From the NCBI GenBank assembly GCA_965220315.1, contig CBDCPP010000001.1, positions 972,806-1,036,805 of the forward strand: a stretch of DNA of 64,000 bases, read 5' to 3'. The translations under genes and the position numbers were made by a program. Source of the stretch: Dehalococcoidia bacterium (GTDB lineage Bacteria > Chloroflexota > Dehalococcoidia > Bin125). Of the stretch, positions 56,531 to 64,000 are shown one piece after another (position 1 is the first letter of the stretch; the number at the start of each line of letters is the position of its first letter). The notes beneath the pieces are model-generated. The model worked only from the letters and a program-made list of their open reading frames with translations. It had not been told where the DNA came from and ran no database searches.

Positions 56531-58222
56531 TTGTTAGGCTTTCTGTACAGAGAATGGCCAATGGAAGTCCTAGATCGAGAATCGAGTTCGCTTGTGTTTG
56601 ATTCGAATAGCCCGAGCGCCGCGCCGCAGCAGACGAATATTGCGGGAGTCGCCCTGCTGGCACAGCCCCCATCCGAGGCTGCTCATGTCCTCAGCGACGA
56701 GGCACTCGCCTTCGTGGCGGGTCTTCAGCGACGCTTCAATGCCACCCGCCAGCTGCTTCTGGAGCGCCGTCGCGATCGTCAGGCTCACCTCGACGCCGGC
56801 CAACGCCCCGACTTCCTTCCCGAAACCGCTAGGATCCGCGAGGATCCCGACTGGCGGGTGGCGCCGACGCTGCCAGATTTGCAGAAGCGCTGGGTGGAGA
56901 TCACCGGCCCGGTCGAGCGCAAGATGATGATCAACGCGCTCAACTCCGGCGCTGATGTCTTCATGGCCGATTTCGAGGACGCGCTTTCCCCCAGCTGGAA
57001 CAACGTCGTTCAGGGTCAGGCGAACTTGATCGACGCCGTGCGCCGCGCGCTCGCGCTCGATATCCCCAGCGGAAAGTCCTACCGTCTTAATCCGCAGATC
57101 GCCACACTGATGGTGCGGCCCCGCGGTTGGCAGCTCGATGAGCGCCACTTACTTGTCGACGGCGCTCCCATCTCAGCTAGCCTCTTCGATTTCGGTCTCT
57201 ACTTCTTTCACAATGCTCAGGAGTCGCTCCAGCGCGGCACGGGCCCCTACGTCTACCTGCCTAAGCTGGAGAGCCACTTGGAGGCGCGACTCTGGAACGA
57301 TGTCTTTGTCCATGCCCAGGAGGCACTAGGCGTTCCCCAAGGCAGCGTACGCGCCACCGTTCTGATTGAGACCATCCTGGCTGCTTTCGAGATGGAGGAG
57401 ATCCTCTACGAGCTGCGCGACCATGCCGCCGCTCTCAACGCGGGCCGTTGGGACTACATCTTCAGTTTGATCAAGAAATTCCGGACCGATGAGGCCAGCG
57501 TACTTCCAGATCGAGCCCAGATATCCATGACCGTTCCTTTCATGCGCGCTTACACCGAACTGCTCGTCAAGACTTGCCATAGACGCGGCGCGCACGCTAT
57601 CGGCGGAATGGCCGCCTTTATCCCCAGCCGCCGTGACGCTGCTGTGAACGAGGTGGCGTTAGCGAAGGTACGCGACGATAAGCAGCGTGAATCTGGAGAC
57701 GGCTTCGACGGCACCTGGGTTGCTCACCCGGATCTTGTCCCCGTGGCCGGCGAGATCTTCGCTGCCGCTCTGCGCGAGAACGATCACCAGAAGCAACGTC
57801 TGCGCGCCGAAGTCACCGTGGACGCGGATGCACTGCTCACTCTCCGCGTTCCCGATGGCGCCGTCACTCTCGATGGCCTGCGCAGTAACATCAGCGTGGC
57901 CCTTCAATACCTCGACGCTTGGCTGCGGGGTAACGGTGCCGTCGCGATTTTCAACCTCATGGAGGACACGGCTACCGCCGAAATCAGCCGCGCCCAGCTC
58001 TGGCAGTGGTTGCGCCACCGCGTCGCCTTGACGGATGGTGAAGGCACTGACGCGAACGTCTCGGCCGAACTCTACGCTCGCATCCGCGACGAGGAGATCG
58101 AGAATCTGGGCGGGCGCGAGAGTGGCGAACTGGGCCAAGCCGCCGACCTGCTCGACGACCTCGTCATGGGTGATGACTTCATAGATTTCCTCACCCTCGA
58201 CGCCTACGGAAGGCTCCCGTGA
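56531..58222 (+). CDS. aceB: malate synthase A
   Basis: [38 protein letters not shown]. 563 aa. Start may be the downstream ATG (MEVLD...). Confidence 0.9.
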
Positions 58223-58295: not shown

Positions 58296-60608
58296 CTAGC
58301 CGGGATCCAGCGGCCGGTCGAAGTTCGCCCGCAGGAAATTCACTAGGTCCCAGCGATCCTGCTCGCTTAGCTCCCCGCTCCAGGCTGGCATTCCCGTGCC
58401 GCGAATCCCGTCGCTGATCCACGTGAACAACACGCCGTCGGAGTGGAACGGCACATGCACGCGGAAGTTGGCCGGCGGTGCGGGCAACGTGCCCGCCAGT
58501 GGCCCATCCCCCAACCCGTCCTCGCCGTGACATTGCGCGCAGTTCGTCACGAATAGCGCCGCGCCATTCGCGACGGATTCCGCGGTCCGCTCCACCGGGT
58601 TCTCCCGCGTCCGTCCCGGCTCTACTTCCAAGCCCCAGAGCATCACTACTGCCGCCGCCATGCACAGGACACCCGCCGCCAGCGACAGATCGCCCGTGCG
58701 TGGCGATACGTGCTTGCGCAGCGGCGCCCGGTAGGCGATCAGGAGACCGGCTCCTACCGCCGCCCACAGCGCCGCGATCCCGTCCCAATCGAATTGCGTG
58801 ATCGGCAGGCTCAGCGCTTCTGGCTGTGCCTGCCCGAATGGAAGCACTTCGATGAACCCTTGCTCGACGTTGGTCGTGATCCCGCCGATCACATCGTCCG
58901 AGCGTTCGCGCCGCACTTCGATATCGACATCCCAAGCACCGGCCAGCCCGAAGAAGGCGCCCTCGATGACGTAGCGGCCACCCTCCGGCTCCGCGGGTAT
59001 GACCACTGGACCCACGCTAGGGTCCTTGTAACGGAAATGGAGCCGGACTTCCGTGACCGGGTCGGCCTGCCTGCCGTTGTTCTCTTCGAGCTGCACTTCG
59101 TAGCGGTTCACTCCCACAAGATTTGGTTCGATCGTCAACTGCGCCGTCAGGTCATTCAGCCTGACCGTCTCATTGATCGCGCGCTCCTTCTGGACCGCAC
59201 CTACCGCCGGCAACTCGCTCCGAGCCGATGGCAGTTGCGTCAGCGCGGCTGTTGCCGCGAGCACCGCCAGCGCCAATCCCAGCTCCATCCGCATCAGCAT
59301 CCGGAAGCGGCGCTCCCCTCGCGAAGTCTCGTGCCCCTCGGTTCCCGCTCGCTGTGAGCGGGGGCGTAACACCAGTGCGTTCGCCGCCGCCGCCGTGAAT
59401 AGGAGCGCCAGTAATCCCAACTTGACAAGCATCGCCAAGCCCCAAGACGTGTTGATGAAGCCGTGTAAGACCGGTACTGCGGCCAGCAGGCTGAGTACGC
59501 CCGCGGCGATCAGGATCGGTACGCAACCCGCCGCCGCCCAAGAGAAGCGGCGTATGGCTTCGATCTGGAACGTGCGCCGCTGCCGTTGCTCTGCGACTCG
59601 CCGTGTAGCCCACAGCGTCCACACCAGTGCCGCGAGCATCCCGATCCACATAGCTGCGGCTGCCAGGTGCACCGCGTCGAACAACGTGGCCCAAATCCAA
59701 CCTTGATCCAGCGCCGCGCCATGGCTCACGCTTGCGAAGCTTGCGATCAGTCCCGCGCCCAAGATCACGAGCGTGAGCAGCGCCTCTCGCGATGCCCGCA
59801 GTGCTGGCCGCCACTGCACCGTGAGCAACAGCGCCGCCGTCATGATTAGGAGCAGCCAGCGGATCAGCAGCCACAGCCCGTTGCGTGTGTCGAACAACGC
59901 CTCGTCCAGGAATGCCAGTCCGCCTAGCCGCAGCGCGGCGGAGGCTGCGTCGTAACCTGTCGTGCAGATCAGAAGTACGGTTGCGACGGTTGCTCCCTCC
60001 CAGGCGTAGTTCAGCGCCGCTCCCGCGAAGCGCGGCCCGGCTCCGCTTACCAGGCGCGCGGCCGGGCGTGCTGCCCACAATGCGAACAGCGCGCCGCCCA
60101 CCAACCCGATGAGGGCCATGAAGCTGAACCACTTCACCGCCGCATCTGCTCCCGCCGGCGGTCCGGGCCGTGAGAGATCCGGCGCGAAGGCTGCCCCGGC
60201 TGGCGCGCTTCCGTCGGGGTTCAGCACCGTGAACGCGAAGGACCCCGTCCACGTATGTCCGTCTACCTCGGATAACGTCCGCCAGGCGACGGTGTAAATT
60301 CCCGGATCGAGCCGCTCGACCCTTGTGCTCATCTGCGTTGCATCCTCCGGGTTGAACAGCACTCCGCCTCGGTCCACTCGCCGTCCCAGACTGTCGAGCA
60401 CCTCTATTCCCGAGAAATCCCGCTGGAGCGGCTCTGTCATGATCAGGTTCACGATCCGTGGGGACTCCTGCAGCGTGGCGTTGATCGGCGGATCCGAGCG
60501 CTTCAGCAACGCATGCCCAGCAACTGGATCCGTTGAGAGCAGGAGCCAGACAATGACGCCGCCGAGCAGCGCCAACGCAAAGAGCGCACGGAGAGCGCGG
60601 GCGGTCAC
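58296..60608 (-). CDS. multidomain copper-handling protein: signal peptide, CopC domain, CopD (8-TM) domain, YtkA/FixH-like domain, C-terminal mono-haem cytochrome c
   Basis: HALLKRSDPP...YTVAWRTLSEVDGH (CopC fold starting at mature His1), then CopD-type TM region, then CAQCHGEDGLGDGPL...M (CxxCH haem c site). GTG 60608 overlaps the stop of the upstream gene (GTGA). The ORF-track start 60932 adds an implausible Arg/His-rich 108-aa leader. Confidence 0.78.
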   Translation of the reverse strand: MTARALRALFALALLGGVIVWLLLSTDPVAGHALLKRSDPPINATLQESPRIVNLIMTEPLQRDFSGIEVLDSLGRRVDRGGVLFNPEDATQMSTRVERLDPGIYTVAWRTLSEVDGHTWTGSFAFTVLNPDGSAPAGAAFAPDLSRPGPPAGADAAVKWFSFMALIGLVGGALFALWAARPAARLVSGAGPRFAGAALNYAWEGATVATVLLICTTGYDAASAALRLGGLAFLDEALFDTRNGLWLLIRWLLLIMTAALLLTVQWRPALRASREALLTLVILGAGLIASFASVSHGAALDQGWIWATLFDAVHLAAAAMWIGMLAALVWTLWATRRVAEQRQRRTFQIEAIRRFSWAAAGCVPILIAAGVLSLLAAVPVLHGFINTSWGLAMLVKLGLLALLFTAAAANALVLRPRSQRAGTEGHETSRGERRFRMLMRMELGLALAVLAATAALTQLPSARSELPAVGAVQKERAINETVRLNDLTAQLTIEPNLVGVNRYEVQLEENNGRQADPVTEVRLHFRYKDPSVGPVVIPAEPEGGRYVIEGAFFGLAGAWDVDIEVRRERSDDVIGGITTNVEQGFIEVLPFGQAQPEALSLPITQFDWDGIAALWAAVGAGLLIAYRAPLRKHVSPRTGDLSLAAGVLCMAAAVVMLWGLEVEPGRTRENPVERTAESVANGAALFVTNCAQCHGEDGLGDGPLAGTLPAPPANFRVHVPFHSDGVLFTWISDGIRGTGMPAWSGELSEQDRWDLVNFLRANFDRPLDPG

Positions 60609-61654
60609 GGTGCTTCGGCCAGCTCCGCCGGGAACGCTCCGTACCAGTCGTGCGTACCGTGGAGTTCGCCCGGCACGATGATCGTGCGCGTCGTGCGCGT
60701 GTTCACCTCGGTTAGGTATATGCCGAACGTCCCGCGCAGGAGGATGTGCCGCCCGTTTTGAGACCAAGCGAAGTCCGGTTGATCCTCCTCCACGGTCGTG
60801 AGCCGGTTCAGCCCGCTGCCATCCGGCCGGATCAGCCAGATATCCTGTACGCCGTTGCTGCGGTTGAGCGCTGAAGGTATGGGCCGACTCGACACCAAGC
60901 GCCCATCTCCCGATGCCGCTACCGCGATCCATTCGCCATTGGGCGAGAACTGGGGCAGGCGAAACACGGCCAGACCATCGCTTAATGCAAGGAGCTGCGT
61001 CCGCTCGCCCGTTTTCAAGTTCAGCACCGATAGTTTGTGATCCAACGCGGGATCGTCGACGAAGACCAACAGATTCCCGTCGGGCGAGAGCGCCGGGTCT
61101 CGCGCGTTCTTCACCAGGATCTCGACCTCGCTCGTTGCGAGGTTGATCCGCTCAACGTTGATCTGAAAAGCGCGTTCCTCATCGTCTGGCTGATTCAGTT
61201 GGTGTGCGTAGACTAGTGATCCCTGATCGGGTGCCCACTGCGGCGTCCACACAAACGCTCCCGTAGCTCTAGGCGTGACAACGACGCGGCTCTCGCCTGT
61301 CAGGTCGGCTACTCGAATGTCGCTGAGCACCGTTGCGGTCTCGCTTCCGGCGAAAATCGCGAAGCGTACATAGGCCACCTCTTGACCGTCGGGCGAGATC
61401 CGCGGTGACACGTACGAGACGTTCAAGCTGGGCGCGACCACCAGTTTCCGTAGATCGCCGTTCTGTTCCAATTGGAGGTTGCCTCCGACCGAATAGACGG
61501 TGAGCCCCGGTATGCCGAGCGCTTTGCTCTCGTCCGCGGCCAGACTCTGCGAGGAAGACAGATCGCCCTGATCGATCGCCGGCGCGTCGTCTCCGCAAGC
61601 GACGGTCATCGCTCCAGCTACGAACAGTGACGCCGCTGCGAGGAGAGCCCTCAC
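60605..61654 (-). CDS. TolB-like periplasmic beta-propeller lipoprotein (PD40 repeats)
   Basis: Lipoprotein signal ...FVAGAMTVAC. Repeated SPDG/SPNG blades (YVSPRISPDGQEVAYV, SPDGNLLVFV, SPNGEWIAVA, SQNGRHILLR). Confidence 0.75.
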   Translation of the reverse strand: MRALLAAASLFVAGAMTVACGDDAPAIDQGDLSSSQSLAADESKALGIPGLTVYSVGGNLQLEQNGDLRKLVVAPSLNVSYVSPRISPDGQEVAYVRFAIFAGSETATVLSDIRVADLTGESRVVVTPRATGAFVWTPQWAPDQGSLVYAHQLNQPDDEERAFQINVERINLATSEVEILVKNARDPALSPDGNLLVFVDDPALDHKLSVLNLKTGERTQLLALSDGLAVFRLPQFSPNGEWIAVAASGDGRLVSSRPIPSALNRSNGVQDIWLIRPDGSGLNRLTTVEEDQPDFAWSQNGRHILLRGTFGIYLTEVNTRTTRTIIVPGELHGTHDWYGAFPAELAEAP

Positions 61655-62325
61655 GACCTCTTATTCCTCCCAGCCTTGGCTATCCGCCCCCCGACAAGCC
61701 CTGCCACTGCTATTACGCTCACTATCGCTAGCGCGATCGGACCCGCACCGATCCCGCCGTCATCTAGCTCCTCGGCCAGCGGGAGCGTGACGGGATCGAT
61801 GGTATCTGCCTCCGCACCTTCGGCTTGCTTGAGATTAGGTTCGTCACCCGGGAACGGGATCAAGAGTTCTTCGGCGAGAACGCGATCGTTCGCCTCGTCG
61901 GCAACGGCGGGAATCGATGCGACATAAAATGGGTACCGGCCCGAGTCGTCGTCTCCGTCTTCTGCGGAGAGGTTGGTCCATTCGACTACGTAGCGACCCG
62001 GTGGGAGCGGTTCCGTGACTTCGGCGAAGAGATGCTGGCGGTCGGCGCTGTCGATCAGCGCTTCGCTCAAGAGCCTTGCGGCGCCGGTGGAGTCCAGCAA
62101 TCGGATCCTGTTCGCTCCCTGGCGTCGGAACAGTTGCTGGCTGAACCAGAGATCGATTCGATCCGGGGCCTTCGTTAGTTCGGCGGCGAATGCGGGCTCG
62201 GAGCGAACGTAGCTCGCGTGCGCCTCGGTCTGACTGGGCCACAGGATTCCGGCGATCACGCCTGCGGTAGCGGCGATGCTGAGAAGGAGCCGGGCCAGGA
62301 CCGGAGCGAAGCCGCCTCCGGCCAT
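61651..62325 (-). CDS. CopC-like periplasmic copper-binding protein with C-terminal TM anchor
   Basis: Signal peptide then HASYVRSEPAFAAEL...RIDLWFSQQL...GRYVVEWTNLSAEDGDDDSGRYPFYV (CopC beta-sandwich pattern with N-terminal His). Stop overlaps the TolB-like start. Start taken at internal ATG (MAGGGF...). Confidence 0.7.
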   Translation of the reverse strand: MAGGGFAPVLARLLLSIAATAGVIAGILWPSQTEAHASYVRSEPAFAAELTKAPDRIDLWFSQQLFRRQGANRIRLLDSTGAARLLSEALIDSADRQHLFAEVTEPLPPGRYVVEWTNLSAEDGDDDSGRYPFYVASIPAVADEANDRVLAEELLIPFPGDEPNLKQAEGAEADTIDPVTLPLAEELDDGGIGAGPIALAIVSVIAVAGLVGGRIAKAGRNKRS

Positions 62326-62341
62326 GGCCCGGCCGGATTGG

Positions 62342-63001
62342 CTATTCGTGTTTGCTCTCCCCATGCTCGCTGCTCTGCTCATCACCGGAGTTGTAATGGC
62401 CGCTTTCCTCTCCGTACTCGTCCGCCATGCGGTCGCTCCCCATATCGTGCTCCTCGGCGGTCTGTTCAGAACGCTGGGAGGCTTGGTGATCGTGCATGGG
62501 CTCTGTCGAATTGCTGATCTCAGGTGGTGGCGGCACCGCTTCTCCCCTCAAGAAGGCGTTCACCGCCTCTTCGAAGGCATGGGCATGGGCGTGCACCACC
62601 CGCACGGGACGCCCGGCCGCTTGAGCGTCGTCGTTCAGGATCGGGCCTTCCAGGGTCTGAAGCGCGGTGAGGAACCCTGCTACGTGTGCATTTAGATCGG
62701 TCGGCCAGATCGGCGCCTGCAGTGTGCTGATGGCACGAGTCACAATCCCAGGATGGGTGGCGTGGATCATGGCCTCGTTATTGATCAGATCGTCCATTGA
62801 GTGAAACTGCGCCACTTGGAGCACCGGCAGCGATGCCACCAAGAGTGCTCGGTCCGATGTCTCGCCCGCGCGCTCCAGCAGGCTGCGCAGCTCAACCACC
62901 TCCTGTTGCAGCGTCTCGAACTCCGATCTACTCACCTCGCCGCCGCCACAGGCTGCAGCCAGTGCAGCCATCGTGGCCAGCGTTCCGTAAGTCAGCAGCA
63001 T
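62342..63001 (-). CDS. His/acidic-rich lipoprotein (putative periplasmic metal-binding protein)
   Basis: Lipobox ...MAALAAACGG. HAHAHAFEE and C-terminal EHDMGSDRMADEYGEESGHYNSGDEQSSEHGESKHE tail. Same strand and operon as the cop genes. Confidence 0.5.
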   Translation of the reverse strand: MLLTYGTLATMAALAAACGGGEVSRSEFETLQQEVVELRSLLERAGETSDRALLVASLPVLQVAQFHSMDDLINNEAMIHATHPGIVTRAISTLQAPIWPTDLNAHVAGFLTALQTLEGPILNDDAQAAGRPVRVVHAHAHAFEEAVNAFLRGEAVPPPPEISNSTEPMHDHQASQRSEQTAEEHDMGSDRMADEYGEESGHYNSGDEQSSEHGESKHE

Positions 63002-63141
63002 CAGCCGTTTCCGCAACCTCGATCTAGACGGAAACGATCCCACGAGCGAACACTCCTTTATTTTATGTGACATAAAGTTTTGCAGATGAGTCAGGATTAG
63101 GGTGCGGCTGGGACGGCCGCACCACTAGGCGAGTGAAGGAG

Positions 63142-63549
63142 CTATCGCGGCGGGGGCGTCGCAGGCCGGACCGCTGGCTGCTCGGTCCAGCGTTTCGCAG
63201 AGGCGATCGTTACCAGCACCGGCGCTGGCAGCTCAGGGGTCGGGGCGGTCACGTCAAGGATCAGTGGCACCGCGCCGGATCCCAAGCCACCGCTGTCGCC
63301 GTGGCCGTGCGCGCTGTGACTGGCCGTTGTTGGGCCGTGTGCGACAGTTGAGTCGTTGGCTTTGGGACTATGACTGGCGTGTCGGCTGACGGACTCCCCC
63401 GCATCGAAGATGGTGGGAGATGGTAGGTGGTCCAGATAGGACAGTGCTGGTAGCCAGGCGAGCAGCAGGATCGTCGCGATCCAGGCAGGCCGCCCCAGCA
63501 AGCGAGATTGGGCACAGGGAAAGGCTCGAGGCGGGAGCGTGGCTGCCAT
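63142..63549 (-). CDS. small membrane protein with His-rich motif (SHSAHGHGDSGG)
   Basis: 135 aa. One N-terminal TM helix (WIATILLLAWLPALSYL) then His-rich low-complexity region. First gene of the minus-strand copper cluster. Confidence 0.4.
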   Translation of the reverse strand: MAATLPPRAFPCAQSRLLGRPAWIATILLLAWLPALSYLDHLPSPTIFDAGESVSRHASHSPKANDSTVAHGPTTASHSAHGHGDSGGLGSGAVPLILDVTAPTPELPAPVLVTIASAKRWTEQPAVRPATPPPR

Positions 63550-63820
63550 GCCGAGAAGCGTACACTCCTACGATTCAGGCATGCCTGGTGATGGATTAAG
63601 GGCGGTTCCGTCGCGCTAGCTAGCCGTCCGGAACGCGCCGTACCCCGCAGCCGCTCAACAACTCCGAGGACCTCAGTGCGATCCAGTTCGCTATTTTGAA
63701 GGTGTTAGGTGCCACAGCCCCGGCGCTTGGAGCGGGATAGCGCCAGAGCTGGGCCTCGGGGGCGTGCCACCATCGCCCGGCCGGGATGCAATCCCAGCCG
63801 GGCCAAGCGGCTGGGTTTTC

Positions 63821-64000
63821 CTACTGAACGCCGTACAGGTCCTCGAGGGTGGCGTCCTCGGGGGCGCCTGGGAAGACGGATCCGGTGACGCGGTTGGCGA
63901 CGCGGCTGCGGATGGCGGCGTAGAAGCTATCGGGCAGCTGGATATAGCCCACCTCGGGAGAGCTGATGATTGGTCGACCCTCGCTGAGGTAGTAGTTCAC
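63821..64000 (-). CDS. 3' end of an unidentified gene (5' part outside window)
   Basis: Open minus-strand frame to the window edge: ...VNYYLSEGRPIISSPEVGYIQLPDSFYAAIRSRVANRVTGSVFPGAPEDATLEDLYGVQ*. Confidence 0.3.
   Translation of the reverse strand: MNYYLSEGRPIISSPEVGYIQLPDSFYAAIRSRVANRVTGSVFPGAPEDATLEDLYGVQ

What the first reader, a model, noticed from the sequence alone, without database searches (positions are those of the whole stretch)
58296..63549. Five-gene copper-homeostasis operon with a CopC-CopD-YtkA-cytochrome c fusion and a TolB-like propeller
On the minus strand, with 4-nt start/stop overlaps suggesting translational coupling. The order is: His-rich membrane peptide, His/acidic-rich lipoprotein, CopC-like anchored protein, TolB-like beta-propeller lipoprotein, then a 770-aa fusion of CopC + CopD + YtkA/FixH-like + mono-haem cytochrome c. 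Fusing a c-type cytochrome to CopCD suggests a redox step (Cu(II)/Cu(I) conversion) coupled to periplasmic copper uptake or delivery. A TolB-like propeller in a cop operon is unusual.
Basis: partly seen in the sequence, partly recalled or inferred. Interest (0 to 1): 0.55.

Follow-up and report, generated by a model that had tools for sequence, protein, structure and literature searches.

The report
Copper-uptake operon with fused cytochrome c
A Chloroflexota operon encodes a YcnJ-like copper importer that has a haem c domain fused to it and sits with three conserved helper proteins, which makes it a testable candidate for the unknown step that reduces copper during bacterial copper uptake.

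Summary
Five minus-strand genes lie at 58296-63549. g1 (770 aa) has a CopC domain, an 8-TM CopD domain, a YtkA-like domain, two more TM helices and a class I cytochrome c domain. Every copper and haem ligand is invariant across 39 homologues, and the predicted topology puts all soluble domains outside the cell.

- **g2:** a six-bladed, TolB-type propeller lipoprotein. It is not TolB.
- **g3:** a membrane-anchored CopC in which the second copper-binding His is replaced by Asp or Glu.
- **g4:** a lipoprotein with an unannotated helical domain of about 105 aa and an invariant H / WP / Hx3H signature. Elsewhere this domain is fused to PCuAC, cupredoxin, YtkA and cytochrome c.

Only g3/g2 and g2/g1 have 4-nt overlaps. 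The order g4-g3-g2-g1 is conserved down to 52% g1 identity, in different genomic contexts. The triad of a g4-like gene, a CopC gene and a CopCD gene recurs in other lineages, often beside Sco or PCuAC. g5 occurs only in close relatives.

The best reading is a copper acquisition and relay system that serves cuproenzymes, with the haem as an inferred Cu(II)/Cu(I) redox step. It is a new variant of a known kind. CopD-cytochrome fusions have already been noted in Proteobacteria.

The parts
63142..63549 (-). g5: a 135-aa His-rich protein with one TM helix (res 21-39) and the conserved motifs SYLDHLP and HGHG..GGLGSGAVPL. It is present only in the closest relatives.
   Evidence: ORF and TM helix. 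tblastn finds it in L001, L002 and L083 at 50-69% identity with the same length and stop context. Codon-position differences of 27/22/46 are consistent with a coding sequence. A gene caller did not call it in L089. It is absent from L084-L086.
63101..63123 (-). Conserved stem-loop (GGTGCGGC / 7-nt loop / GCCGCACC) in the spacer between g5 and g4. It may be a processing, attenuation or weak termination element.
   Evidence: Sequence. The alignment with L001 and L002 shows the stem is kept, with one compensatory G-C to A-T change in L001 and a G-T wobble in L002. No T-tract follows it, and the terminator scan did not call it.
62342..63043 (-). g4: a 233-aa lipoprotein (lipobox LAAAC, Cys32). It has an all-helical core domain of about 105 aa with invariant H81, W113-P114, H151 and H155 (plus D84, E90 and E158 within its own clade). 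A PPPP linker follows, then a variable His- and acid-rich tail.
   Evidence: start; invariant residues; all-helical model, pLDDT 49.7. describe the domain family. It has 92 representative clusters and 1-6 copies per protein, with fusions to Cupredoxin_1 (8), PCuAC (4), plastocyanin-like (3), cytochrome c (2), YtkA (2) and a multicopper oxidase domain (1). The domain itself has no Pfam or PDB match.
61651..62364 (-). g3: a CopC-domain protein with a signal peptide, a predicted mature N-terminal His36, an acidic linker and a C-terminal TM anchor. Candidate starts are ATG 62364, ATG 62325 and GTG 62385. The second His of the His-Asp-His Cu(II) site is replaced by Asp or Glu (EDGDDD).
   Evidence: Pfam CopC at 4.5e-14 and TM helices. 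The alignment of orthologues shows H36 and D123 are invariant and D/E sits at the usual His position. Standalone CopCs of the same subfamily that sit next to cytochrome-less CopCD genes keep EDGH.
60605..61654 (-). g2: a 349-aa lipoprotein that consists only of a six-bladed PD40 (TolB-type) beta-propeller. It belongs to a distinct clade found next to g1-type genes. Invariant polar residues include H151, N267, D271, E290, D291, D294, E330 and H332; H303 and D336 are nearly invariant (at least 90%).
   Evidence: Pfam PD40 at 3.4e-9. NCBIfam TolB scores 59 bits against a cutoff of 343. The clade P0130-P0155 has E<=1e-41, against >=4e-18 for other PD40 proteins. Invariant residues. AlphaFold pLDDT 83.9 with 24 strands. 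Foldseek's top hits are TolB propellers at TM 0.6 and E 5e-15.
58296..60608 (-). g1: a 770-aa fusion protein. Its parts in order are a signal peptide, CopC, an 8-TM CopD, a YtkA-like domain, 2 TM helices and a mono-haem cytochrome c.
   Evidence: More than 100 clusters share the CopC+CopD+cytochrome c architecture, almost all from Chloroflexota MAGs.
60225..60515 (-). g1 CopC domain (res 32-128). After signal-peptide cleavage His32 is predicted to be the N-terminal residue, and D116-G-H118 completes the His-Asp-His Cu(II) site. There is no Met-rich Cu(I) site.
   Evidence: Pfam. D116 and H118 are invariant and H32 nearly invariant in 39 sequences. It matches the solved YcnJ CopC domain 9c14.
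59232..60140 (-). g1 CopD membrane domain (res 157-459, 8 TM helices) with invariant H296 and H314.
   Evidence: NCBIfam CopD covers profile positions 6-291 of 295. Hydropathy peaks and invariant residues. The two His residues correspond to the two conserved CopD histidines, YebZ H135 and H154, that are needed for copper uptake (PMC11923076).
58854..59183 (-). g1 YtkA-like beta-sandwich domain (about res 476-585). The Met motif (M..M.MG) seen in some YtkA domains is replaced by Y.DP.VGP.
   Evidence: Pfam YtkA at E 1.2e-3, below threshold. hhalign gives 99.3% and E 4e-20. Sequence comparison.
58638..58781 (-). Two extra TM helices (res 610-626 and 641-657) that bring the chain back to the outside. 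The short loop between them is Arg/Lys-rich.
   Evidence: Hydropathy.
58323..58613 (-). g1 cytochrome c domain (res 666-762). It has C690-xx-C693-H694, the axial ligand M740, and invariant H718, H722 and D724.
   Evidence: Pfam and invariant residues. The closest solved structure is Thioalkalivibrio paradoxus CytC552 (7o9u and 9vr0, E about 1e-17). H718 aligns with CytC552 His83.

Best explanation
This is a cell-surface copper acquisition and relay system of the YcnJ/CopCD type in a Chloroflexota bacterium. It most likely feeds copper to membrane cuproenzymes, chiefly haem-copper oxidases.

**Proposed path of copper.**
1. Cu(II) is captured by the lipoprotein g4, through a three-His helical domain and a His- and acid-rich tail. 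In close relatives the small His-rich membrane protein g5 may also take part.
2. Cu(II) passes to the membrane-anchored CopC paralogue g3, and then to the His-brace Cu(II) site of the g1 CopC domain (H32, D116, H118).
3. It is handed to the His296/His314 gate of the g1 CopD channel for import. Alternatively it goes to the YtkA-like domain for delivery outside the membrane.

**Role of the haem.** The c-type haem tethered to g1 on the same side of the membrane supplies the redox step. It reduces CopC-bound Cu(II) to Cu(I), using electrons from the respiratory chain. That would release copper from a site that binds only Cu(II).

**Role of the propeller.** g2 acts as a protein-binding scaffold for the complex.

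**Status of each step.** Shown here by computation: the domain identities, the conserved ligands, the outward-facing topology, the conserved gene order and the copper-specific fusion partners of the g4 domain. Taken from published work: the roles of CopC, CopD and YtkA in YcnJ and YebZ. Inferred: the order of copper hand-offs, the reductase role of the haem (my estimate is about 0.35-0.4 on its own) and the scaffold role of g2.
For: **Architecture and ligands.**
- Domains are assigned.
- The copper ligands D116, H118, H296 and H314 and the haem ligands C690, C693, H694 and M740 are invariant across 39 homologues that go down to 28% identity; H32 is nearly invariant.
- There are eight plus two TM helices, so CopC, the YtkA-like domain and the cytochrome c domain are all extracytoplasmic.

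**Conserved gene order.**
- The order g4-g3-g2-g1 is conserved in L001, L002, L083, L084, L085 and L086, with different flanking genes and tight or overlapping junctions.
- The order g4-like, standalone CopC, CopC-CopD(-YtkA) recurs in unrelated metagenomic loci. All six loci with enough downstream sequence have it (L093, L094, L095, L097, L099, L101).
- PCuAC lies upstream in L093 and L095. It also lies upstream of the g4-like repeats in L100, whose contig ends before any CopC gene. SCO1/SenC is upstream in L090 and a copper-type P-ATPase is upstream in L101.
- L101 also has the cytochrome c fused to CopCD, at 58% identity to the g1 haem domain, and has no propeller gene.

**The g4 domain.** It is fused elsewhere to PCuAC, cupredoxin, YtkA and cytochrome c.

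**The haem domain.**
- Its closest solved relative is the electron partner of a copper enzyme, and its gene lies next to a cluster containing copCD.
- A standalone relative at 49.5% identity sits between SURF1 and Rieske/cytochrome b genes, so domains of this type belong to the respiratory chain.

**Literature.**
- YcnI and YcnJ exchange Cu(II) (PMC12362106).
- YebZ H135 and H154 are required for uptake (PMC11923076).
Against: - There is no experimental or expression data for this locus.
- No copper-responsive regulator is adjacent, and none was found in the window.
- The YtkA-like domain lacks the Met motif and has no invariant His, Met or Cys, so a chaperone role for it is doubtful.
- g3 lacks the canonical second His.
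- Thermodynamics are unknown. A class I cytochrome may not be reducing enough for tightly bound Cu(II)-CopC unless a strong Cu(I) acceptor is coupled to it.
- The invariant H718/H722 motif is shared with CytC552, so it is a family feature and not evidence for a copper site.
- One 63%-identical homologue (L081) and the distant homologues L087 and L088 lack adjacent g2-g4 genes, so the helper proteins are not obligatory.
- Whether the genome has haem-copper oxidases or a cytochrome c maturation system could not be checked from a 64-kb window.
Confidence: 0.55

Rival explanations
1. The haem domain is an oxidase-biogenesis tether and does not act on copper. The cytochrome c domain would dock g1 to the bc complex or to the cytochrome c site of subunit II of a haem-copper oxidase, or would simply carry respiratory electrons. 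Copper brought by CopC, CopD and the YtkA-like domain would then be delivered right at the CuA or CuB assembly site. The redox state of copper would be handled elsewhere, for example by thiols or thioredoxin-like proteins.
For: - A standalone relative of the haem domain sits in a SURF1 / Rieske / cytochrome b cluster.
- Sco and PCuAC genes neighbour the g4-like / CopC / CopCD triad.
- CopD-cytochrome c fusions in other lineages carry Sco1- or TlpA-like thioredoxin domains (PMC11923076).
- CtaK (YtkA) and the YcnJ YtkA domain support CuA assembly (PMC13344008).
Against: - The YtkA-like domain in g1 has no conserved copper ligand.
- The haem ligands and the propionate-contacting His are strictly conserved, which fits an electron-transfer role at least as well as a docking role.
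- No oxidase, Sco or PCuAC gene lies in this window.
Confidence: 0.2
2. This is a copper resistance system. The surface proteins would sequester excess copper, and the haem domain would oxidise toxic Cu(I) to Cu(II). CopC would then bind the Cu(II), and the electrons would pass to the respiratory chain. That would be a cytochrome-based analogue of CopA/PcoA-CopC or CueO.
For: - CopC and CopD were first described in resistance operons.
- The CopC site here binds only Cu(II), so it would be a natural sink for the product of Cu(I) oxidation.
- The many His- and acid-rich tails could buffer metal.
- The distant homologue locus L088 carries CsoR and other metal genes, and L091 has CusF after a CopD-cytochrome fusion.
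Against: - There is no multicopper oxidase, CopB, efflux ATPase or copper sensor in the operon or the window.
- CopCD alone causes copper hypersensitivity and uptake (PMC8689200, PMC11923076).
- The YcnJ-type architecture is linked to copper limitation (PMC12362106, PMC13344008).
- The CopD histidines needed for import are conserved.
Confidence: 0.15
3. The propeller g2 is the functional centre. It would be a metal-dependent redox enzyme loaded with copper by CopC and CopD, with the fused cytochrome c as its electron acceptor. This mirrors thiocyanate dehydrogenase, a beta-propeller tri-copper enzyme that works with CytC552 and has copCD in its gene cluster.
For: - The haem domain's closest solved relative is CytC552, the electron acceptor of thiocyanate dehydrogenase. 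copCD lie in that gene cluster.
- g2 has a clade-specific set of invariant His, Asp and Glu residues.
- g2 is translationally coupled to g1.
Against: - g2 is a six-bladed PD40/TolB-type propeller. Its Foldseek top hits are TolB and S9-peptidase propellers, with no thiocyanate dehydrogenase or N2O reductase among the matches listed.
- It has only 5 His, of which two are invariant and one nearly so.
- The cytochrome fusion exists without any propeller in L081 and L101, so the haem does not depend on g2.
Confidence: 0.06
4. The genes are merely adjacent and do not form a functional unit.
For: - No promoter or terminator was identified.
- g5 is separated from g4 by a hairpin.
- One close homologue of g1 lacks the partner genes.
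Against: - The order is conserved with 4-8 nt overlaps across loci whose flanking genes differ, while protein identity falls to 29-52%.
- The core triad recurs independently in other lineages.
Confidence: 0.02

Closest known systems
Bacillus subtilis YcnJ (CopC-CopD-YtkA) with its partner YcnI, in the ycnKJI operon
   Same: - The order CopC, 8-TM CopD, YtkA-like domain is the same.
- The Cu(II) His-brace ligands and the CopD histidines are conserved.
- A membrane-anchored copper-binding partner protein is encoded next to it.
- The likely role is support of haem-copper oxidases when copper is scarce (PMC13344008, PMC12362106).
   Different: - g1 has two extra TM helices and a c-type cytochrome domain.
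- The partners are a CopC paralogue (g3), a new helical His3 lipoprotein (g4) and a propeller (g2), in place of the DUF1775 protein YcnI.
- There is no YcnK-type repressor.
- The YtkA-like domain lacks the Met motif.
Proteobacterial CopD with a cbb3-type cytochrome c domain and a Sco1/thioredoxin-like domain (for example Methylosinus trichosporium OB3b CopD; about 4% of proteobacterial CopDs, PMC11923076)
   Same: A c-type cytochrome domain of the same Pfam family is fused downstream of CopD. Examples P0106 and P0107 were recovered here.
   Different: - Those proteins lack the N-terminal CopC and the YtkA-like domain, and they end in a thioredoxin/Sco-like domain.
- g1 has no such domain.
- The function of the haem is unknown in both cases.
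[quoted passage not shown]
   Same: A CopC-type Cu(II) binder works with a CopD importer that has two essential histidines, together with an extra periplasmic metal-binding helper (PMC11923076, PMC8689200).
   Different: - The AZY components are separate polypeptides.
- The helper is DUF2511.
- There is no cytochrome, no YtkA domain and no propeller.
Corynebacterium glutamicum CtiP (CopD-CtaG fusion) with the anchored CopC Cg1884 and the PCuAC protein Cg1883 (PMC9145763)
   Same: - A standalone CopC is anchored by a C-terminal TM helix, like g3.
- A CopD domain is fused to another module concerned with oxidase biogenesis.
- PCuAC lies nearby, as it does in the related loci L093, L095 and L100.
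   Different: - The fusion partner is Caa3_CtaG, not YtkA plus cytochrome c.
- No propeller or g4-type protein has been described there.
Thioalkalivibrio paradoxus CytC552 (PDB 7o9u, 9vr0), the electron acceptor of thiocyanate dehydrogenase
   Same: - It is the best solved match to the g1 haem domain (E about 1e-17).
- The two share CxxCH, the axial Met and the HxPxHSDG motif, which includes His83, the residue proposed to link a copper centre to the haem propionate.
- copCD lie in the adjacent gene cluster.
   Different: - CytC552 is a soluble, standalone protein with His-rich disordered tails.
- Its partner is a seven-bladed tri-copper enzyme that has no counterpart here.
TolB (Tol-Pal system)
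   Same: Both have a six-bladed PD40 beta-propeller. TolB is the best structural match (TM about 0.6).
   Different: - g2 has no N-terminal alpha/beta domain.
- Identity is only about 18%, and the NCBIfam TolB score is far below the cutoff (59 against 343).
- g2 is a lipoprotein.
- There are no tol/pal genes nearby, and the host phylum is Chloroflexota.

Membership tests
YcnJ-type CopC-CopD-YtkA copper importer | N-terminal CopC domain with a Cu(II) His-brace (N-terminal His plus Asp-x-His) | tested here: met
   Pfam CopC at 1.3e-15. D116 and H118 are invariant and H32 is nearly invariant in 39 sequences. It matches the YcnJ CopC structure 9c14. Cleavage before H32 is predicted from the VAG/H context only.
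YcnJ-type CopC-CopD-YtkA copper importer | 8-TM CopD domain with the two conserved histidines | tested here: met
   Pfam CopD at 62 bits, above the 32.1 cutoff. The NCBIfam CopD profile is covered at positions 6-291 of 295, but at 92.9 bits it is below the equivalog cutoff of 195. There are eight hydropathy peaks. H296 and H314 are invariant.
YcnJ-type CopC-CopD-YtkA copper importer | YtkA-like domain after CopD | tested here: inconclusive
   Pfam YtkA gives 19.9 bits against a cutoff of 25.9. hhalign gives 99.3% and E 4e-20 to the equivalent domains of CopCD proteins. Homology is therefore clear, but the Met motif is missing and the Pfam threshold is not reached.
YcnJ-type CopC-CopD-YtkA copper importer | Copper import activity, induction by copper limitation, and YcnK/YcnI partners | not testable with these tools
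   There is no expression or transport data. No gene of the operon matched any further Pfam family besides CopC, CopD, cytochrome c and PD40, so a DUF1775 (YcnI-type) protein is not encoded there.
Class I c-type cytochrome (Pfam Cytochrome_CBB3 / Cytochrom_C) | CxxCH haem attachment motif, an axial Met, and a location outside the cytoplasmic membrane | tested here: met
   Pfam 48.2 and 45.3 bits, both above the cutoffs. C690, C693, H694 and M740 are invariant. The topology of 10 TM helices after CopC places the domain outside. Haem attachment itself was not tested.
TolB (Tol-Pal) | N-terminal alpha/beta domain together with the propeller, and the tol-pal gene context | tested here: not met
   g2 is 349 aa and consists of a signal peptide and 24 strands only. 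The NCBIfam TolB equivalog scores 59 against 343. No tol/pal genes were seen among the neighbours.
cop/pco copper resistance operon (copABCD) | A multicopper oxidase CopA/PcoA and an outer-membrane CopB alongside CopC and CopD | tested here: not met
   Only CopC, CopD, cytochrome c and PD40 domains are found in the five genes. Targeted tblastn queries found no further copper genes in the window.
CopD-cytochrome cbb3-Sco1-like fusion (M. trichosporium OB3b type) | A C-terminal Sco1/thioredoxin-like domain after the cytochrome domain | tested here: not met
   g1 ends 8 residues after the cytochrome domain and has no AhpC-TSA, Redoxin or SCO1 hit. P0106 does have one.
Thiocyanate dehydrogenase-type copper propeller with a CytC552 partner | A seven-bladed propeller that holds a His-rich trinuclear copper site | tested here: not met
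   g2 has six blades. No thiocyanate dehydrogenase or NosZ appears in the PDB sequence hits or among the 50 Foldseek matches listed. Only two His residues are invariant and one more is nearly invariant.

The most novel reading that the evidence does not exclude
The haem c domain fused to g1 is a built-in cupric reductase. It would take an electron from the respiratory chain and reduce Cu(II) held in the CopC His-brace. Copper would then be released as Cu(I) into the CopD channel. This would be the first bacterial 'reductive copper import' machine, comparable in logic to eukaryotic Fre/STEAP plus Ctr1. It would also identify the reductase missing from YcnJ/CopCD-type uptake. Alongside it, the g4 helical H/WP/Hx3H domain would be a new family of extracytoplasmic copper chaperone, and the g2 clade a new copper-system propeller scaffold.
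Probability: 0.3. Interest if true: 0.75.

Novelty: new variant of a known kind. Interest (0 to 1): 0.5.

Why it matters
**The open question.** How bacteria bring copper in and load it onto respiratory oxidases is still poorly understood. CopC binds Cu(II), while cytoplasmic sensors, chaperones and CopA-type P-type ATPases handle Cu(I). A 2026 study of YcnJ states that no associated reductase is known (PMC13344008).

**What this locus offers.**
- A natural fusion that is conserved in more than 100 sequence clusters. It places a redox-competent haem on the same polypeptide, and on the same side of the membrane, as the CopC, CopD and YtkA modules. That gives a concrete protein on which the redox step can be tested.
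- An unannotated copper-associated helical domain (g4). It is found as 1-6 copies per protein and is fused to PCuAC, cupredoxin, YtkA or cytochrome c.
- A dedicated clade of TolB-like propellers.

The g4 domain and the propeller clade are both candidates for new components of copper trafficking in environmental bacteria.

Tried and rejected
- **Exact look-up of g1.** It returned nothing. The locus was reached through g4 instead, but only on a 7.4-kb contig.
- **Genome-collection scan with g1 alone.** It gave two true relatives and about 78 hits that matched only the cytochrome domain. Synteny was therefore taken from per-protein look-ups.
- **g4 structure.** The AlphaFold model was too poor (pLDDT 49.7) to justify a fold search. 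A profile of the g4 domain against PDB and Pfam gave only chance-level hits.
- **g2 as a copper enzyme like thiocyanate dehydrogenase.** Rejected on fold, since g2 has six TolB-type blades.
- **P0101 as a genuine propeller-CopCD fusion.** This 1217-aa protein matches g2 and then patches of g1. The matches are interrupted by unrelated sequence, which points to frameshift errors merging adjacent genes. It was not used as fusion evidence.
- **H718/H722/D724 as an extra copper site.** Not supported, because the motif is shared with standalone CytC552, where His83 contacts the haem propionate.
- **Regulatory elements.** The promoter and terminator scan found nothing above the shuffled background, apart from a hairpin after the upstream gene. 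Rfam gave no credible RNA family.
- **Other copper genes.** tblastn found no Sco, CsoR, CopA-type ATPase, PCuAC, NicO, ArsP, DUF1980 or CcdA homologues in the window.
- **Metagenome scan.** A four-sequence sub-alignment worked.
- **Literature.** Lawton et al. 2016 (the CopC family paper) could not be retrieved.

Full report
**What is in the sequence.** Five co-directional minus-strand ORFs occupy 63549..58296.
- Upstream, a PBP_like_2 solute-binding gene ends at 63821 and is followed by a hairpin and a 270-nt spacer.
- Downstream, a convergent malate synthase gene ends at 58222.
- The other neighbours are housekeeping genes: MutL, MutS, a NuoF-like gene, FtsY, SMC and RNase III.
- GC content across the operon (0.61-0.66) matches the surroundings.
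- The closest relatives come from Chloroflexota/Dehalococcoidia MAGs.

**Gene junctions.** I read the junctions directly from the sequence.
- g3/g2 and g2/g1 share GTGA start/stop overlaps.
- g4/g3 is either a 23-44 nt overlap or a 16-nt gap, depending on the g3 start.
- g5 and g4 are separated by 98 nt, or 68 nt if the upstream ATG at 63073 is the g4 start. The spacer holds a stem-loop (63123-63101) that is kept in L001 and L002, with one compensatory base-pair change.
- g4 most likely starts at GTG 63043, after an AAGGAG motif. An independent gene call on contig L089 agrees.

**g1, the fusion protein.** Pfam places CopC at residues 32-128, CopD at 350-456 and a class I cytochrome c at 679-760, all above their gathering scores. 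The NCBIfam CopD profile is covered almost end to end, at residues 157-458.

The whole protein did not hit YtkA. The excised middle domain gives PF13115 at E=1.2e-3 over 81 of 85 profile positions, below the cutoff. A profile-profile comparison with the C-terminal domains of ordinary CopC-CopD proteins gives 99.3% probability and E=4e-20. One of those proteins passes Pfam YtkA. However, the M..M.MG motif seen in some members is replaced here by Y.DP.VGP, and the domain has no invariant His, Met or Cys.

Hydropathy shows a signal sequence, eight TM helices in CopD and two further TM helices at 610-657. CopC, the YtkA-like domain and the cytochrome therefore all face outward, as haem attachment requires.

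In an alignment of 39 homologues that goes down to 28% identity, these residues are invariant:
- the Cu(II) ligands D116 and H118 (H32 is nearly invariant);
- the CopD pair H296 and H314, which correspond to YebZ H135 and H154, both needed for copper uptake (PMC11923076);
- the haem ligands C690, C693, H694 and M740.

**The haem domain.** Its best solved relative is CytC552 of Thioalkalivibrio paradoxus (E about 1e-17).
- That cytochrome accepts electrons from thiocyanate dehydrogenase, a copper enzyme built on a beta-propeller (PMC9456337). The enzyme's gene cluster contains copCD (PMC5744179).
- The invariant H718 of g1 aligns with CytC552 His83, which has been proposed to connect the copper centre to the haem propionate. 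I read this as a family feature, not as a new copper site.
- A standalone cytochrome 49.5% identical to the g1 domain lies between SURF1 and Rieske/cytochrome b genes in L102. Domains of this type therefore belong to the respiratory chain.

**g2, the propeller.**
- It is a lipoprotein with PD40 repeats.
- Its AlphaFold model (pLDDT 83.9) has 24 strands, which is six blades.
- The best PDB matches are TolB propellers (TM about 0.6), followed by S9-peptidase propellers. Neither thiocyanate dehydrogenase nor N2O reductase appears.
- It lacks TolB's N-terminal domain and scores far below the TolB model cutoff, so it is TolB-like in fold only.
- It belongs to a sharply separated clade (E<=1e-41, against >=4e-18 for other PD40 proteins). 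That clade has its own conserved polar residues: H151, N267, D271, E290, D291, D294, E330 and H332 are invariant, and H303 and D336 nearly so.

**g3, the anchored CopC.** It has a C-terminal membrane anchor. Its predicted N-terminal His and the Asp are invariant, but the second His of the usual His-Asp-His site is Asp or Glu in all its orthologues. Standalone CopCs of the same subfamily that sit beside cytochrome-less CopCD genes keep that His. The one other lineage with a cytochrome fusion (L101) also has Asp. This may reflect a single evolutionary event, so I report it as an observation only.

**g4, the helical lipoprotein.** It has no Pfam, NCBIfam or PDB match.
- An exhaustive HMMER search with its core found 92 representative clusters.
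- The unit is an all-helical domain of about 105 aa, present in 1-6 copies per protein. It has an invariant His, a Trp-Pro pair and an Hx3H motif.
- Of 86 member proteins, 8 also carry Cupredoxin_1, 4 PCuAC, 3 a plastocyanin-like domain, 2 cytochrome c, 2 YtkA and 1 a multicopper oxidase domain.
- This is strong guilt-by-association evidence for a role in copper handling.

**g5.** It is a small His-rich membrane protein. It is conserved in length, motifs and codon-position pattern in L001, L002 and L083. It is absent from more distant loci and was not called by one gene finder.

**Conservation of the unit.**
- The order g4-g3-g2-g1 is kept in L001, L002, L083, L084, L085 and L086. Identity falls to 52% for g1, about 33% for g2, 40% for g3 and about 29% for g4. 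The flanking genes differ, and the junctions remain overlaps of 4-8 nt or short gaps.
- A 63% homologue (L081) and two distant ones (L087, L088) lack these neighbours, although L088 has CsoR, CopC genes and a PD40 propeller nearby.
- Independently, loci found through a different subclade of the g4 domain always show g4-like, then standalone CopC, then CopC-CopD(-YtkA), wherever enough sequence follows. That is six of six loci.
- PCuAC lies upstream in L093 and L095, and also in L100, whose contig ends before any CopC gene. A copper-type P-ATPase is upstream in L101. SCO1/SenC is upstream in L090.
- L101 carries the cytochrome fusion but has no propeller.
- The core is therefore a triad of a g4-like gene, a CopC gene and a CopCD gene. 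The propeller and, in part, the cytochrome are lineage-specific additions.

**Interpretation.** The system matches the YcnJ/YcnI and YobA/YebZ acquisition systems, not cop/pco resistance. The operon has no multicopper oxidase, CopB, efflux pump or sensor, and a protein search of the window for Sco, CsoR, a copper ATPase and PCuAC found none. The import-critical residues are conserved. The recurring neighbours elsewhere are the oxidase chaperones Sco and PCuAC.

I therefore commit to a surface copper relay that feeds cuproenzymes. The tethered haem most plausibly supplies the electron that converts CopC-bound Cu(II) to Cu(I). That step is explicitly unassigned for YcnJ (PMC13344008). The hand-off order, the reductase role and the scaffold role of g2 are inferences.

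The rivals, in order of weight, are:
1. a docking or electron-carrier role for the haem in oxidase biogenesis;
2. a resistance or Cu(I)-oxidase role;
3. g2 as a redox enzyme.

**Novelty.** The proteins are already in public databases under automatic names ('CopD family protein', 'c-type cytochrome'). CopD-cytochrome fusions have been noted in Proteobacteria (PMC11923076). I found no paper in the library describing the CopC-CopD-YtkA-cytochrome architecture, its propeller partner or the g4 domain. I rate the locus a new variant of a known kind, of moderate interest.

Noticed in passing
window 63101-63123 (minus strand): A conserved 8-bp stem-loop lies between the g5 stop and the g4 start, with one compensatory change in L001 and no T-tract. 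It may set different expression levels for g5 and g4-g1, or mark an RNA processing site.
   Followed up: partly
window 61651-62364 (g3); L090, L093-L095, L097, L099, L101: The standalone CopC has Asp or Glu in place of the second copper-binding His (EDGD) in every locus where CopCD carries a cytochrome c. It keeps His (EDGH) in L090, L093, L095 and L099, where the CopCD has none, and in L094 and L097, where the contig ends before the end of the CopCD gene. The cytochrome-bearing loci may share one ancestor, so this is not yet an independent correlation.
   Followed up: partly
window 62510-62947 (g4 core); proteins P0181-P0271: An unannotated helical domain family of about 105 aa (invariant H, WP, Hx3H). 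It occurs as tandem repeats of up to 6 copies and is fused to PCuAC, cupredoxin, YtkA, cytochrome c or multicopper oxidase domains. It is a candidate new copper-binding domain with no Pfam model or solved structure.
   Followed up: partly
P0101 (1217 aa): This protein matches g2 (46% over 309 aa) and then scattered pieces of g1. It looks like adjacent g2 and g1 genes merged by frameshift errors in an assembly, not a true fusion.
   Followed up: yes
L088:5175-17433: The locus of a distant g1 homologue carries NicO, CsoR, a thioredoxin-like gene, a two-component system, two CopC genes, ArsP_1 plus DUF1980, and a Big_5/PD40 propeller. It appears to be a metal island next to integrase and transposase genes.
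   Followed up: no
L102:3738-9714: A SURF1 gene is followed by three unannotated ORFs (189, 175 and 136 aa), a membrane cytochrome c (49.5% identical to the g1 haem domain), a Rieske gene and a cytochrome b gene. This suggests the g1 haem domain was recruited from a cytochrome associated with the bc complex.
   Followed up: partly
L092:1-7059: P0156, a PD40 propeller just outside the g2 clade, lies near an HMA-type P-ATPase, an ArsR/MarR-type regulator, a thioredoxin-like gene and signal peptidase II. It is another loose link between a propeller and metal genes.
   Followed up: no
L081:9753-10004: In the 63%-identical homologue that lacks g2-g4, an 83-aa ORF with no Pfam hit overlaps the g1 start by 4 nt. 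It was not characterised.
   Followed up: no
window 63793-63815: A GC-rich hairpin sits directly after the stop codon of the upstream PBP_like_2 gene. The T-run is on the plus strand only. It probably marks the end of that transcription unit and the start of the copper locus's regulatory region.
   Followed up: no
window 62252-62348: A weak Rfam hit to EBER1 (22.9 bits against a gathering score of 50, E 0.14) lies on the plus strand inside the g4/g3 junction. I treat it as chance.
   Followed up: yes
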